IMG/VR virus record: IMGVR_UViG_2671180275_000011
DNA: 11,394 nt
Strand: one strand, 5' to 3'
DNA from: a virus
Lineage: Duplodnaviria; Heunggongvirae; Uroviricota; Caudoviricetes
A program made the position numbers. This document shows positions 6,001 through 9,000 of the stretch, one piece after another. Within the stretch, counting starts at the first letter, position 1. Every line of letters starts with the position of its first letter.

Positions 6001-9000
6001 GAAACCCGGTAGCCATGCTGGCAGTGTGTGCATCACTCGCCGGGCCGTTGCTGTGGCTGCTTGATGTGGACAGCGGCGGATTTCATTTCATGGGCGACAG
6101 TTCCAGCGGGAAAAGCGTGGGGGCGCTGGTGGCCTGTAGCGTATGGGGAGAACCCCGCAACTTTAAACGCAACTGGAACGCCACCAGCACCGGGCTTGAA
6201 GGGCTGGCGACCATGCGGAACGATACCGCGCTGATACTGGATGAAATTGGCGAAGCCCCGGCCAGAGATATTGGCGGGCTGATTTATCAGCTTGGCAACG
6301 GAACAGGCCGCCAGCGTGGCAAGGTGTCCGGCATGGCCCGCCCGGTCAACACATGGCGCACCATGATTATTTCCACAGGGGAAATGACCGTGGGTAAACA
6401 CATGGAAAGCGGTGGTCAGCGCATCAAGGCCGGGCAGGAAATGCGGTTACTGGATATTCCGGCACAGCGGCTTTACGGGGCGTTTGACTGCCTCCACGGA
6501 ATGGCACTACCCCACAACCCCGACAACGACACAGAACGCCGTGGAGCAGGCCGGAAATTTGCCGAAACGCTGCGCGGTAATGCGGCCACCCATTACGGCC
6601 ACGCCGGGCCGGAGTTTGTGCGCTGGCTGATTTCCCGCAATGAAAGTGACACCACCAGCACCGACAGCAACGGCCAGACGCTGGCGGATATGTACGCCAT
6701 ACTGCGCGAACAATTCCCCGTAAGCACCGGGCAGGAGGCGCGCGCCGCCGCGCGTTTCACACTGTGCGCACTGGCCGGTGAAATGGCGATAACTGCCGGG
6801 ATTCTGCCGTGGAAACAGGGCGAAGCACTGGAGGCGGTGAAAGCGATGTTTGCTGCGTGGTCGGACTATCGTGGCCGGGGGCAATCGGAGGACGTGAAAA
6901 TACTCCGGGCCGTCGCCGGGTTTATCGCCCGCCATGCCTCACGCTTTGAAGGGGGCAACACATACAGCGAACCAGTAAGCAACCGCGCCGGATGGTGGCG
7001 ACCGGGGAGCAACGGCGACCGGGTTTACTGGTTTTTACCGGAAGCACTATGTGAGGCGGCCAGCGGCTACGACCTGAAACGCATAGCGGCCAGTCTTGAT
7101 GATGCTGGCGCGATTGTTGACCGCGACACGGACGGGAAACGCCGATACACAAAACGCGTTTCCGTTAACGGGGAAAAACACCGCGTTTACGCCATCGACC
7201 AGAATGCATTGTTATTCGCAATTGATGAATAATTAACAAAAATTGCGTTTTTAAAAACTGAAAAAGTGGTGGGACTGGTGGGAACTGTGGGAACCGTAAA
7301 AATAAAACATATATAAATCAGTAAATAATAAAATCACCAGTATGATTATTGTTCGTTTTTGAGTGGGAACTCTGCGGGAACTGGTGGGAACCACAGAGAA
7401 CAAAAAATAACCGCCACGGTTCCCACAAAAAGCCACCGTGGGAACTGGTGGGAACCACTGAAAGCCGCGTGGTTCTAGGCGGTTCCCACAGTTCCCACCA
7501 GTCCCACCAACTTGCACAATATTACGCACGGCAAAAAACGCACCATAAAAACCCGGAAATCCCTTACGTGGCGCTGGATGCAAGGCAATTTCAGTGTGCA
7601 AAACGGGTTAAACAGCAAAACCACACAGAATAGCGAAAAGCCCAGCAATGGCGCGGCATGTGGAGCATTTACCAGTGAATCACGAATAACGCTTTTTAAG
7701 GGCAAAAATGCACTTTTTAGCGCACAAAATCACGCGAAGCCAGACGCGGCGCGGCTTACAGCCGTGTTTATATGCCTGATTACCGTTTTCTGGCGGCAAA
7801 AAAGAACACCGAAACACACGCGCAGCCCGCGCCACACAAGGGATACAGCGAAATGAGCACATCAGAACACGCAGAAATCACGAAAAAACACCATAAAACG
7901 CACGTTTTCAGCGATTCAGAACATCAGATTTATGCATAAGTTATTCAGCCTGCCGGATGCATTGTGTGAGTTTATCCGGGCATTACCTGCACCGGATTTA
8001 CAGGAAGCGCACCAGTCCGAAACATGGCCGGAAGACAACACCACCAGCAACGGCCAGACGCTGGCGGATATGTGCGCCCCGTCTGCGGCGTGGCTGGCTG
8101 CCCGTGATGCGTATATCAGCCACGTCATGACCTGCCCGCATTGTGCTACCAGCGGCGTTAAAAAACCGCGTCATTGCGCTGAGGGTGAACGACTACGGCA
8201 GAACTACGACCACACCAGATAACCACCACACCCCGGCGATTAATTCCGGGAACAGCCGGGAGAATGCGGGAAAAGGCGGGATTAATCCGGGAATAAACGG
8301 AAATAACCGGGATTTCGTGGGACTGCACCGCCATAAGGTGGGGTGCGGTCATTATTCCGCGACGTTTTCCCCGGCAAGAGCACACGCGGCGCGGGCTGCA
8401 TGGAATTTCAGGCCATGCCAGAAATGAACTTTTTCGCCCATTGTTACCCTGAATATGGTAAAAAATGCTCACCCATTGCCGGGCCATGAACAAAATCAGC
8501 CCCATTATGCATGGCGGCCACATACCACCAGCCACATCACAGAGCGCCATTGAATGCCAGAGAGTACACCACGAGCGCCATTTTAAAAACCGTTTCAAAG
8601 CACCATAAAATCGGCTTTTAGGCATTGTTTAAGAAAGCGTGTTTTTCAGACAGGCCGACCGACTGGCAGGATATGAGAAAGGCAACGTAATCAGCGTATC
8701 CGGCACGATGCAGGTAAGCCAGTGGACCGGACAGAACGGGGAAACGCGGCAGGGTTATCAGGTCATAGCGGACAGCATAATCAGTGCACGGGCGACGCGT
8801 CCAGGCGGGAGCAGACGCAGTACCACAGGCACACAGAGCAATCAGCCACCAGCGGGAAGTTATGACCCCTGCGGTGACAATATTCCGTTCTGAGGGGGTG
8901 AACGATGGTACATGACCGCATAGCGGAAGAACTGGAGTCGAAAGGCTTTTACCGGAGAGCGGCGGCGCGATGGGCCGAAGTGATGATGCTGGTGGAGACT

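What the first reader, a model, noticed from the sequence alone, without database searches (positions are those of the whole stretch)
8040..8078. In-frame duplicate of a helicase-internal segment about 1.4 kb downstream of the helicase gene
Nucleotides 6666-6693 of the helicase gene (encoding SNGQTLADM) recur exactly at 8046-8073, together with the flanking ACCACCAGCA and a one-mismatch extension. The copy is again in an open frame (ORF 7932-8222), giving the same peptide. A 28-nt exact repeat is very unlikely by chance. It points to a recombination scar or a remnant of a second, diverged replication gene, so this part of the island is probably a decayed or mosaic segment.
Basis: seen in the sequence. 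Interest (0 to 1): 0.4.

Follow-up and report, generated by a model that had tools for sequence, protein, structure and literature searches.

The report
Helicase snippet copied into neighbouring gene
A roughly 45-base piece of a mobile island's replication helicase gene, starting at a Chi recombination hotspot, has been copied in frame into the floppy linker of a separate small gene 1.4 kb downstream; it is a real but ordinary recombination scar, not the remains of a second helicase.

Summary
The repeat is real. The exact direct repeat is 29 nt (6665-6693 = 8045-8073), one base more than reported. With one 9-nt in-frame indel it extends to 6649-6698 versus 8038-8078. Both copies are in frame, and shuffled sequence gives repeats of at most 15 nt.

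The window is an E. coli PICI-like island between yicC and dinD. The helicase copy is native: GQTLADM[F/Y]A sits at this position in many DUF927 helicases. The ORF96 copy is derived. It occurs only in one shallow clade (E. coli, E. albertii, some Salmonella) and is missing from ORF96 homologues in Lelliottia and other islands.

ORF96 is not a helicase remnant. It is a conserved small gene (dN/dS 0.2-0.5) with an uncharacterised His/Cys C-terminal domain, and it lies downstream of a DUF927 helicase in every related locus examined. The patch falls in its predicted disordered linker.

The patch begins with a Chi octamer. The island carries 18 Chi sites in 11.4 kb, against 2.2 expected under synonymous-codon shuffling.

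Most likely this is a short ectopic gene-conversion patch, possibly Chi-stimulated, and neutral. It leaves a substrate for deleting the origin; one draft contig shows that junction. Interest is low to moderate. The Chi density is the more notable by-product.

The parts
6649..6698 (+). Helicase copy of the repeat, the inferred donor. It encodes D-T-T-S-T-D-S-N-G-Q-T-L-A-D-M-Y-A: a variable Thr/Ser loop followed by the start of a conserved helix.
   Evidence: The helicase-family alignment shows GQTLADM[F/Y]A at this position in relatives of 75-96% identity, preceded by a loop of variable length.
8038..8078 (+). ORF96 copy of the repeat, the inferred recipient. It encodes N-T-T-S-N-G-Q-T-L-A-D-M-C-A within the linker of ORF96.
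   Evidence: Absent from the ORF96 homologues of Lelliottia (L004), L020 and L040. AlphaFold2 pLDDT is about 47-56 over residues 17-51.
6665..6693 (+). 29-nt exact core, helicase copy.
   Evidence: (longest exact direct repeat in the window is 29 nt) and reading.
8045..8073 (+). 29-nt exact core, ORF96 copy.
   Evidence: and reading.
6652..6659 (-). Chi octamer (GCTGGTGG on the minus strand, read as CCACCAGC within the ACC-ACC-AGC Thr-Thr-Ser codon unit) at the left edge of the helicase copy.
   Evidence: The same 9-nt unit occurs four times in tandem in the Salmonella L006 helicase.
8041..8048 (-). Chi octamer at the left edge of the ORF96 copy.
6660..6668 (+). Degenerate second 9-nt unit (ACCGACAGC, T-D-S), present in the helicase copy and missing from the window's ORF96 copy. 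This is the in-frame indel between the two copies.
   Evidence: Salmonella L006 ORF96 keeps both units. E. coli L016 and L025 ORF96 keep this unit instead of ACCACCAGC.
6680..6687 (+). Chi-like octamer GCTGGCGG (7 of 8) inside the repeat. It is a perfect Chi (GCTGGTGG) in the helicase copy of strain JNEC-KY203 (L012). The twin in the ORF96 copy lies at 8060-8067.
5394..7232 (+). DUF927 (Cch / SaPI Rep-like) replicative helicase gene, 612 aa.
   Evidence: Pfam DUF927 E 7e-83. PDB 5DGK 'Active helicase' E 1e-17 and 8TCH 'Pathogenicity island protein' E 2e-12. Annotated as WP_000198858.1.
7267..7509 (.). Putative replication origin: GTGGGAAC-type iterons, a perfect 30-nt inverted repeat (7267-7296 / 7480-7509) and an AT-rich stretch. 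It lies between the two repeat copies and would be lost if they recombined.
   Evidence: (I1, D10, I14, I15). The function as an origin is inferred from its position after the helicase gene and its iteron architecture.
7932..8222 (+). ORF96, a conserved small gene. It has an N-terminal helix motif (LPDALCEFIRALP), a disordered linker, and a C-terminal domain with invariant H64, C68, C71 and C82.
   Evidence: Annotated CDS WP_001370963.1. Homologues. dN/dS. Model. Synteny. No Pfam, PHROG or PDB match.

Best explanation
Context (shown). The window is a roughly 10-kb PICI-like integrative island of E. coli between yicC and dinD. In order it carries an integrase, AlpA, Ash/Icd-like genes with C4-type RNAs, a Toprim primase, a DUF927 helicase, an iteron origin, ORF96, and PerC and Mor regulators.

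What the repeat is (shown). It is a short in-frame patch of about 41-50 nt with a 29-nt exact core. The helicase copy is the original. It encodes a variable Thr/Ser loop and the start of a helix that is conserved across the helicase family. The ORF96 copy is secondary. It sits in the disordered linker of an independent, conserved small gene and exists only in one shallow clade of islands in E. coli, E. albertii and some Salmonella.

How it arose (inferred). A short-tract ectopic gene conversion, or templated repair, copied the helicase segment into the ORF96 linker without changing the linker's 23-residue length. The patch starts at a Chi octamer. On the Chi-bearing strand, the DNA that RecBCD would preserve and load with RecA is exactly the repeated segment. 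A Chi-stimulated RecBCD/RecA event is therefore a plausible cause. The 9-nt Chi-containing codon unit ACC-ACC-AGC also expands and contracts by slippage, which accounts for the 9-nt indel between the copies.

What it does now (inferred). Probably nothing for either protein; it is a tolerated passenger in a disordered linker. Its one consequence is structural. A 29-nt identity is just above the roughly 23-27-bp minimum for RecA-dependent exchange in E. coli (established knowledge). Recombination between the copies would delete 1,380 bp in frame. That would remove the helicase C-terminal 179 residues, the origin and the ORF96 N-terminus, and leave a 482-aa helicase-ORF96 fusion unable to replicate. 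One draft contig shows exactly this junction.
For: - Repeat real and non-random.
- Island identity and gene content.
- Helicase copy native: GQTLADMFA/YA is aligned at this position in many helicases of 75-96% identity, after a loop of variable length. The Lelliottia helicase has GACGGCCAGACGCTGGCGGACATGT.
- ORF96 copy derived: the Lelliottia (P0008), L020 (P0133) and L040 (P0243) ORF96 homologues have equal-length 23-residue linkers without the motif and share no nucleotide repeat of 12 nt or more with their own helicases.
- Single shallow clade: 93-100% nucleotide identity across helicase, origin and the 5' half of ORF96 in all patch-bearing loci.
- Copies now drift independently. L012 and L013 carry substitutions in the helicase copy only, and L014 and L003 in the ORF96 copy only.
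- ORF96 is a real gene.
- Patch lies in low-confidence linker.
- Chi at the patch edge, 18 Chi sites in the window, and four tandem units in the Salmonella helicase.
- Deletion junction: the 692-nt contig L002 equals window 6573-6698 fused to 8036-8644.
Against: - The conversion mechanism and the role of Chi are inferred, not shown. Apart from Chi-containing ACCACC and ATGT microhomologies, the two sites share no flanking homology to guide RecA.
- The P0131/P0243 clade of ORF96 homologues has Q-T-L-x-x-M-Y at the same linker positions. This could mean the similarity is older than the shallow clade. A simple single recent event would then be wrong, and re-homogenisation would be needed.
- The deletion junction rests on one short draft contig that could be an assembly chimera. 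None of the 32 complete E. coli genomes with the region carries it.
- The patch has stayed in frame in every intact copy seen, which a functional reading would also predict.
Confidence: 0.6

Rival explanations
1. Selected Chi cassette. The island is under strong selection to accumulate Chi sites, either as protection from RecBCD or to use it for recombination-dependent replication and concatemer formation. The patch was fixed because it installs a Chi octamer and a convergent Chi-like octamer next to the origin. Tandem expansion of ACC-ACC-AGC in the helicase gene would be the same process acting locally.
For: - 18 Chi sites in 11.4 kb, against 0.47 in dinucleotide shuffles.
- 14 within CDSs, against 2.25 +/- 1.26 under synonymous-codon shuffling, with a maximum of 6 in 1000.
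- Chi is the commonest octamer in the window.
- The enrichment is confined to the island part in E. coli, Salmonella and Lelliottia relatives.
- Four tandem Chi units occur in the L006 helicase.
- Chi-rich phages lacking their own recombination module are documented at about 1 Chi per 1.9 kb (PMC12315714). This island has about 1 per 0.6 kb.
Against: - One added Chi among 17 others is a small gain.
- A point mutation could create Chi more cheaply than a 45-nt copy.
- Only 8 of the roughly 45 copied bases are Chi.
- Chi orientation shows no pattern around the origin.
- No experiment links Chi to the fitness of this island.
Confidence: 0.17
2. Functional peptide mimicry. ORF96 displays the helicase loop (TTS..NGQTLADM) as a short linear motif, so that both proteins bind the same partner (primase, a host replication factor or a helper-phage protein). 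ORF96 would then regulate or compete with the helicase.
For: - The copy is in frame and intact in all full-length homologues of the clade across three species.
- ORF96-like genes always accompany DUF927 helicases.
- The P0131 clade retains QTL..MY at the same linker positions.
Against: - Non-synonymous variants occur inside the motif in both genes: T to A in L014 and L003 ORF96, and A to V and A to E in the L012 and L013 helicases.
- ORF96 homologues in Lelliottia, L020 and the wider family lack the motif altogether.
- In L040 the ORF linker does not match its own helicase loop.
- The clade is shallow, so in-frame retention carries little weight.
Confidence: 0.08
3. Old shared segment kept alike by repeated gene conversion (concerted evolution). 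On this view it is not a single recent copy.
For: - The P0131/P0243 ORF96 homologues (46% identity) carry Q-T-L-x-x-M-Y in register. That includes the Tyr found in the helicase copy rather than the Cys of E. coli ORF96.
- The linker is 23 residues long in all close homologues.
- E. coli L016 and L025 ORF96 carry the helicase's other 9-nt unit, ACCGACAGC.
Against: - Variants are not mirrored between the two copies within any genome.
- Lelliottia ORF96 lacks the motif, although its C-terminal domain is at least as close to E. coli ORF96 as that of P0131.
- L040 shows no nucleotide repeat with its own helicase.
- The L016 variant is equally well explained by loss of a different 9-nt unit from a two-unit ancestor like L006.
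Confidence: 0.1
4. Remnant of a second, decayed helicase or replication gene.
For: - The peptide is shared in frame.
- There are pseudogenes nearby.
Against: - No similarity beyond the patch.
- hhalign probability of 0.2% between the two families.
- ORF96 has its own conserved domain, purifying selection and synteny.
- Related islands have the same small gene here, not a helicase.
Confidence: 0.02
5. A cis-acting nucleic-acid element present twice: a protein-binding site, a hairpin, or the target of the island's C4-type antisense RNAs, by analogy with P1/P4 RNA immunity.
For: - Two C4 antisense RNA genes and isrK lie in the island.
- The patch contains the imperfect inverted pair CCACCAGC...GCTGGCGG.
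Against: - The two copies fold differently and no better than shuffles, with z-scores of -1 to -1.9.
- C4-patch duplex energies are not outliers among all windows.
- The only complementary stretches elsewhere are at chance level, 10-12 nt (I4, I9, I10, I13).
Confidence: 0.03

Closest known systems
Short-tract ectopic gene conversion or short direct repeats in bacterial mobile elements (substrates for RecA-dependent or slippage-mediated deletion)
   Same: Abrupt edges, no flanking homology and clear donor-to-recipient polarity. The repeat length is just above the minimum for efficient RecA-dependent exchange. A candidate deletion product exists (L002).
   Different: The patch is in frame in two different genes and begins at a Chi site. 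The conversion event itself is inferred, not observed.
Chi-rich phages lacking their own recombination module (LLS and other lambdoid phages, and P1; Zheng et al. 2025, PMC12315714; Bobay et al. 2013, PMC3784561)
   Same: Chi is the most frequent octamer and is enriched far above codon-usage expectation. No recombinase or RecBCD inhibitor was recognised among the island's annotated genes.
   Different: This is a roughly 10-kb satellite-like island, not a phage. Its density is about three times higher (about 1 per 0.6 kb against 1 per 1.9 kb), and the sites are split evenly between strands. No growth data exist.
Gram-negative phage-inducible chromosomal islands (EcCICFT073, EcCIEDL933, EcCIMP1; PMC11773190)
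   Same: Integrase, AlpA, Ash-family protein, primase/helicase followed by an origin, a PerC-family regulator, a size of about 10 kb, and no structural or lysis genes.
   Different: No packaging or capsid-redirection genes were identified, and induction by a helper was not tested. The integration site (yicC-dinD) and the split Toprim primase plus DUF927 helicase differ from the characterised examples.
Cch (SCCmec) and SaPI Rep self-loading helicases (PDB 5DGK, 8TCH)
   Same: DUF927 ATPase core, with a weak match to the Cch C-terminal helix-turn-helix domain.
   Different: Sequence similarity is distant. The Thr/Ser loop that carries the repeat is specific to an enterobacterial subfamily.

Membership tests
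Helicase pseudogene or remnant (for ORF 7932-8222) | Similarity to a helicase extending beyond a short patch | tested here: not met
   BLASTP finds only the patch (E 4e-4) and a 7-residue match (E 0.12). tblastn finds nothing further. hhalign probability is 0.2%.
Helicase pseudogene or remnant (for ORF 7932-8222) | Signs of decay: frameshifts, stops, relaxed selection | tested here: not met
   The 96-aa ORF is intact and annotated as a CDS in many genomes. dN/dS is 0.19-0.46 against distant homologues.
Ectopic gene-conversion patch | Near-identity with abrupt boundaries inside otherwise unrelated sequence | tested here: met
   29 of 29 exact, about 40 of 41 with one indel, and no similarity outside.
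Ectopic gene-conversion patch | One copy ancestral at its locus and the other absent from outgroup orthologues | tested here: met
   The motif is conserved in the helicase family. It is absent from the ORF96 homologues of L004, L020 and L040. Caveat: partial similarity in P0131.
Ectopic gene-conversion patch | Direct observation of the transfer, or dependence on RecA/RecBCD | not testable with these tools
   Requires genetics.
Chi recombination hotspot | Octamer 5'-GCTGGTGG-3' | tested here: met
   Minus-strand Chi at 6652-6659 and 8041-8048. There are 18 in the window.
Chi recombination hotspot | Attenuates RecBCD nuclease and stimulates recombination at this site | not testable with these tools
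   Needs RecBCD assays or crosses.
Gram-negative PICI (for the island) | Integrase, AlpA, and primase/replicase followed by an origin | tested here: met
   Pfam hits, annotation, iterons at 7267-7509.
Gram-negative PICI (for the island) | No phage structural or lysis genes; size about 10-15 kb | tested here: met
   None appear among the annotated ORFs. The island spans about 1-10175.
Gram-negative PICI (for the island) | Packaging or capsid-redirection module | tested here: not met
   No such gene was recognised downstream of the helicase. Only ORF96, an ssb remnant, perC and mor are there.
Gram-negative PICI (for the island) | Induction, replication and packaging by a helper phage | not testable with these tools
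   Experimental.
Targets of C4/CI-type antisense RNA (P1/P4-style RNA immunity) | Complementarity between the regulatory RNA loops and the repeated target | tested here: not met
   C4 genes lie at 2982-3069 and 3472-3559. Their duplex energies with the patch are not outliers.
DUF927 / Cch-like replicative helicase (gene 5394-7232) | DUF927 ATPase domain above the Pfam threshold | tested here: met
   279 bits against a cut-off of 22.6. PDB 5DGK and 8TCH.
DUF927 / Cch-like replicative helicase (gene 5394-7232) | Cch C-terminal HTH domain | tested here: inconclusive
   HTH_56 scores 21.0 bits, below its cut-off of 26.2.

The most novel reading that the evidence does not exclude
The patch is not a passive scar but part of how this island family gains Chi sites. 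The Chi-bearing codon unit ACC-ACC-AGC, with its flank, spreads by tandem slippage within the helicase gene and by ectopic copying into ORF96. This happens in an element under unusually strong selection for Chi (about 1 per 0.6 kb, the densest I am aware of). The selection would exist because the satellite depends on, or must survive, host RecBCD during replication and packaging.
Probability: 0.2. Interest if true: 0.55.

Novelty: new member of a known kind. Interest (0 to 1): 0.3.

Why it matters
In itself the repeat matters little. It is one recent recombination scar in a narrow clade of islands. Its practical use is as a marker of that clade and as a predictable deletion hotspot that would remove the island's origin and disable replication.

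The follow-up turned up two things of wider use:
- This family of PICI-like islands is packed with Chi sites well beyond codon-usage expectation. That points to a dependence on, or a defence against, RecBCD that has been described for some phages. I did not find it described for satellites in two literature searches of the held library.
- An uncharacterised small His/Cys-domain protein is a constant neighbour of DUF927 helicases across Enterobacteria and Pseudomonas-type elements. That makes it a candidate component of their replication or control module.

Tried and rejected
- Remnant of a second helicase: BLASTP, tblastn and hhalign found nothing beyond the patch.
- Recurrent copying in other islands: I scanned 24 related loci for repeats of 12 nt or more between the ORF96-like gene and the rest of the locus. 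Only the shallow clade has the repeat. A 15-nt match in L029 lies at a different helicase position and in a different frame, so it is chance in GC-rich DNA.
- P0131 clade: I looked up a longer contig (L040). Its helicase loop and ORF linker share no nucleotide repeat.
- Concerted evolution: variants are not mirrored between copies. An apparent excess of conservation disappeared once sliding identity showed that the whole module is 93-100% identical among patch-bearing loci.
- Shared hairpin or structural element: the two copies fold differently, with ordinary z-scores.
- Target of the C4 antisense RNAs: not an outlier. Short complementary stretches elsewhere (I4, I9, I10, I13) are at chance level.
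- Deletion variant in complete genomes: none of the 32 genomes with the region carries it.
- Function of ORF96: no hits in Pfam or PHROGs, and no hits for its model against PDB with Foldseek.
- The genome-contig scan returned only one locus, E. albertii.
- The top HMMER hit P0130 (3,571 aa, 42 stretches) is a repetitive protein and was ignored.
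Full report
**1. The observation**

Reading the sequence and running the repeat finder (family D3) confirm a direct repeat between the helicase gene and the ORF at 7932-8222.
- The exact identity is 29 nt: CAGCAACGGCCAGACGCTGGCGGATATGT at 6665-6693 and 8045-8073. This is the longest exact direct repeat in the window.
- Without gaps the match is 43 nt at 91% (6656-6698 vs 8036-8078).
- If the 9-nt unit found only in the helicase copy (ACCGACAGC, 6660-6668) is allowed as an indel, the flank ACACCACCAGC also matches. The helicase copy then spans 6649-6698 and the ORF copy 8038-8078, with a single mismatch (A6694 vs G8074).
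- The spacing is 1380 nt, or 460 codons, and both copies start on a codon boundary. Both read S-N-G-Q-T-L-A-D-M.
- Chance is excluded. A 26-mer with up to 3 mismatches matched in 0 of 200 shuffles, and the longest repeats in shuffled sequence were 11-15 nt.
- It is not a dispersed motif. The 43-mer occurs in 32 of 5,426 complete E. coli genomes, at most twice per genome, and only in these two genes.

**2. The surroundings**

The window is identical to E. coli 2012EL-2448 (NZ_CP027586) and lies between yicC and dinD. The genes, in order:
- integrase (1-1272)
- an unknown ORF (1368-2321)
- AlpA (2491-2697)
- two Ash/Icd-like genes that contain isrK and two C4 antisense RNA genes
- two small ORFs
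- a Toprim primase (4370-5413)
- a DUF927 helicase (5394-7232; Pfam E 7e-83; nearest solved relatives are SCCmec Cch 5DGK and a SaPI protein 8TCH)
- an iteron and inverted-repeat region with an AT-rich core (7267-7509), which I take to be the origin
- ORF96 (7932-8222)
- an ssb remnant
- a PerC gene annotated as frameshifted
- a Mor gene
- a weak tRNA-like element

This is the gene content of Gram-negative PICI-type satellites (compare PMC11773190). No packaging genes were recognised.

**3. Which copy is the original**

An alignment of 65 helicase homologues shows the segment lies between two conserved helices (HAGPEFVRWLI... and ...REQFPVSTGQEARAAARF). A loop of variable length and low complexity is followed by (G)QTLADM[F/Y]A. 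That motif is present in many enterobacterial helicases of 75-96% identity. The Lelliottia helicase carries GACGGCCAGACGCTGGCGGACATGT at the nucleotide level. The helicase copy is therefore native.

The ORF96 copy is not.
- ORF96 homologues from Lelliottia (P0008, same yicC site and same gene order), from L020 (P0133) and from L040 (P0243) have linkers of the same length, 23 residues from W to W, but without the motif.
- They share no nucleotide repeat of 12 nt or more with their own helicase genes.
- All loci that carry the patch (E. coli at two integration sites, E. albertii, two kinds of Salmonella island, and five metagenome contigs) are 93-100% identical across the helicase, the origin and the 5' half of ORF96. 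The patch therefore marks one shallow, horizontally spreading lineage.
- Within that lineage the two copies now drift independently. L012 and L013 have substitutions only in the helicase copy, and L014 and L003 only in the ORF96 copy.

**4. ORF96 is a gene in its own right**

- It is annotated as a CDS (WP_001370963.1).
- An HMMER profile search of 1.84 billion representatives found 115 clusters. Most match only the C-terminal 45-50 residues (W-x3-ARD-x-Y-x2-H-x-M-x-C-x2-C...H-C-x2-G-x2-L-R-x2-Y-D). H64, C68, C71, C82 and G85 are invariant in a 58-sequence alignment.
- dN/dS against distant homologues is 0.19-0.46.
- In all 24 related loci examined, including Pseudomonas-type elements whose helicases are only 37-60% identical, the ORF96-like gene lies a few hundred bases downstream of a DUF927 helicase gene.
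- AlphaFold2 (58-sequence alignment, mean pLDDT 71.5) predicts a short N-terminal helix (9-16), a low-confidence linker (17-51, pLDDT about 47-56) and a confident C-terminal domain (52-96, pLDDT about 90). The patch, residues 36-49, lies in the linker.
- Pfam, PHROGs and a Foldseek search of the PDB gave no match.
- BLASTP against the helicase finds only the patch and a 7-residue chance-level match. tblastn of the helicase against the downstream 3 kb adds nothing. Profile-profile comparison of the two families gives a probability of 0.2%.

The 'second, diverged replication gene' reading is therefore rejected.

**5. The Chi connection**

The left edge of both copies, CCACCAGC, is the complement of the Chi octamer GCTGGTGG (6652-6659 and 8041-8048, minus strand).
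- The window holds 18 Chi octamers, 8 on the plus strand and 10 on the minus, all within the island. Dinucleotide shuffles give 0.47, and the E. coli chromosomal average of 1 per 4.6 kb (PMC12315714) would give about 2.5.
- Chi is the commonest octamer in the window. Fourteen lie in CDSs, against 2.25 +/- 1.26 (maximum 6 in 1000) when synonymous codons are shuffled within genes. The excess therefore lies in codon choice, not protein sequence.
- The enrichment is confined to the island portion in E. coli, Salmonella and Lelliottia relatives, and is absent from Pseudomonas-type relatives.
- In the helicase loop, Chi is the codon unit ACC-ACC-AGC (Thr-Thr-Ser). The window has one perfect unit and one degenerate unit. 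Salmonella L008 has ACCAACAGC as its second unit. Salmonella L006 has four perfect tandem units, which makes four tandem Chi sites.
- The 9-nt indel between the two copies is exactly one such unit. Salmonella L006 ORF96 keeps two units, and E. coli L016 and L025 ORF96 keep the other one. This fits slippage from a two-unit ancestral patch of about 50 nt.
- The repeat also contains the Chi-like GCTGGCGG on the plus strand. It is a perfect Chi in the L012 helicase copy.

**6. Mechanism**

Shown: the polarity of the copy (helicase to ORF96), its restriction to one clade, its position in a disordered linker, Chi at its edge, and slippage of the 9-nt unit.

Inferred: a short-tract ectopic conversion or templated repair created the patch.
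- From established RecBCD biology, an enzyme that meets a minus-strand Chi while travelling left to right preserves that strand beyond Chi and loads RecA on it. The resulting 3' tail ends at Chi and consists of exactly the repeated segment. A Chi-stimulated event is therefore plausible, but it is not demonstrated.
- The equal linker length before and after, together with ACCACC and ATGTAC-like strings in the patch-less L040 homologue, suggests that microhomologies bounded the event.

Present-day role: most likely none for either protein.

Consequence: 29 bp of identity is just above the roughly 23-27-bp minimum for RecA/RecBCD-dependent exchange (established knowledge).
- An exchange would remove 1,380 bp in frame, comprising helicase residues 434-612, the origin and ORF96 residues 1-47.
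- Protein P0006 and its 692-nt contig L002 (GCA_021079785.1) are exactly this: window 6573-6698 joined to 8036-8644.
- No complete E. coli genome has the junction. It is either a rare real deletion or an assembly chimera.

**7. Alternatives**

- A selected Chi cassette is possible, given the Chi data. It is not necessary, and it would be an expensive way to gain one Chi.
- Peptide mimicry is weakened by non-synonymous variation within the motif and by its absence from most ORF96 homologues.
- Ancient similarity maintained by repeated conversion is suggested only by Q-T-L-x-x-M-Y in the P0131/P0243 clade. That clade's own helicase does not match its linker. I leave this unresolved.
- A shared hairpin and targeting by the island's C4 RNAs found no support.

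**8. Verdict**

The 'scar' interpretation is right in spirit. The 'second replication gene' interpretation is wrong.

The feature is an ordinary kind of event, a short ectopic duplication or conversion, in a known kind of element. I rate it of low-to-moderate interest (0.3) and classify it as a new member of a known kind. The extreme Chi density of the island family and the helicase-linked small His/Cys protein are the by-products most worth following up.

Noticed in passing
window 616-10161 (18 sites; also L001, L004, L006, L008, L020): Extreme Chi (GCTGGTGG) density: 18 in 11.4 kb, 8 on the plus strand and 10 on the minus, all inside the island. Chi is the commonest octamer. Fourteen lie in CDSs against 2.25 +/- 1.26 under synonymous-codon shuffling. 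The same enrichment is seen in Salmonella and Lelliottia relatives, with 0-2 sites in the flanking chromosome. This is about three times denser than the Chi-rich phages LLS and P1 (PMC12315714).
   Followed up: partly
window 7932-8222; loci L004-L039: The C-terminal domain of ORF96 (invariant H64, C68, C71, C82, G85) defines an uncharacterised family of about 115 clusters at 50% identity, with no Pfam, PHROG or PDB match. In all 24 loci examined its gene lies just downstream of a DUF927 helicase, from Enterobacteria to Pseudomonas-type elements.
   Followed up: partly
L002 (GCA_021079785.1 contig JAHVPP010000156, 692 nt); protein P0006: A draft contig joins helicase 6573-6698 to 8036-8644 through the repeat. 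This gives an in-frame helicase-ORF96 fusion that lacks the origin. It is either a real 1,380-bp deletion or an assembly chimera. No complete genome carries it.
   Followed up: partly
L003 6600-10082 (E. coli ETEC4090, CP122620); window equivalent 8044-8051: A resistance transposon bounded by IS26 ends (aac(3) and aph genes) is inserted inside the ORF96 copy of the repeat, with an 8-bp target duplication CCAGCAAC. Protein P0007 is read-through from the IS26 end into the remainder of ORF96.
   Followed up: yes
window 1279-1344, 2854-2933, 2982-3069, 3472-3559: Rfam gathering-level matches to int-alpA RNA, isrK and two C4 antisense RNAs. The last three lie inside the two Ash/Icd-like genes, which suggests a P1/P7-type RNA immunity module in the island.
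   Followed up: no
window 10030-10175: A tRNA-like element at 10081-10162 scores 35 bits in Rfam and is called tRNA-Tyr by PGAP, but ARAGORN finds nothing. It overlaps a 41-nt direct repeat (10030-10070 / 10135-10175, 80%) that resembles tRNA 3' ends; each copy contains a Chi complement. Some relatives have an additional 'tRNA-OTHER' here (L012, L013). These may be att-related tRNA fragments at the island's right end.
   Followed up: no
window 7267-7509: Putative origin: a perfect 30-nt inverted repeat (7267-7296 / 7480-7509), GTGGGAAC iterons and an AT-rich core. The iteron GGGAACTGGTGGGAAC contains CTGGTGG, 7 of the 8 bases of Chi.
   Followed up: partly
window about 8100-8200 compared with L006 and L008: Identity to the Salmonella islands drops from 96-100% to about 80% and then about 40% within the 3' half of ORF96. 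A mosaic recombination breakpoint therefore lies in the conserved C-terminal-domain coding region, not at the patch.
   Followed up: partly
window 7512-7939 (poly-A run near 7784-7790): In strain NCCP 13963 (L013) an ORF of 114 aa upstream of ORF96 is annotated as a gene and overlaps the ORF96 start. In the window it is split by a 1-nt difference in a poly-A run. The product is low-complexity and basic. It is not conserved in Lelliottia, which has a Mor-like gene there, so it may not be a real gene.
   Followed up: partly
window 7950-7970 vs 7035-7055: ORF96 residues 7-13 (LPDALCE) resemble helicase residues 548-554 (LPEALCE), 6 of 7 identical. The BLASTP E-value is 0.12, there is no nucleotide match, and the profile comparison gives no support. 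I judged it to be chance.
   Followed up: yes
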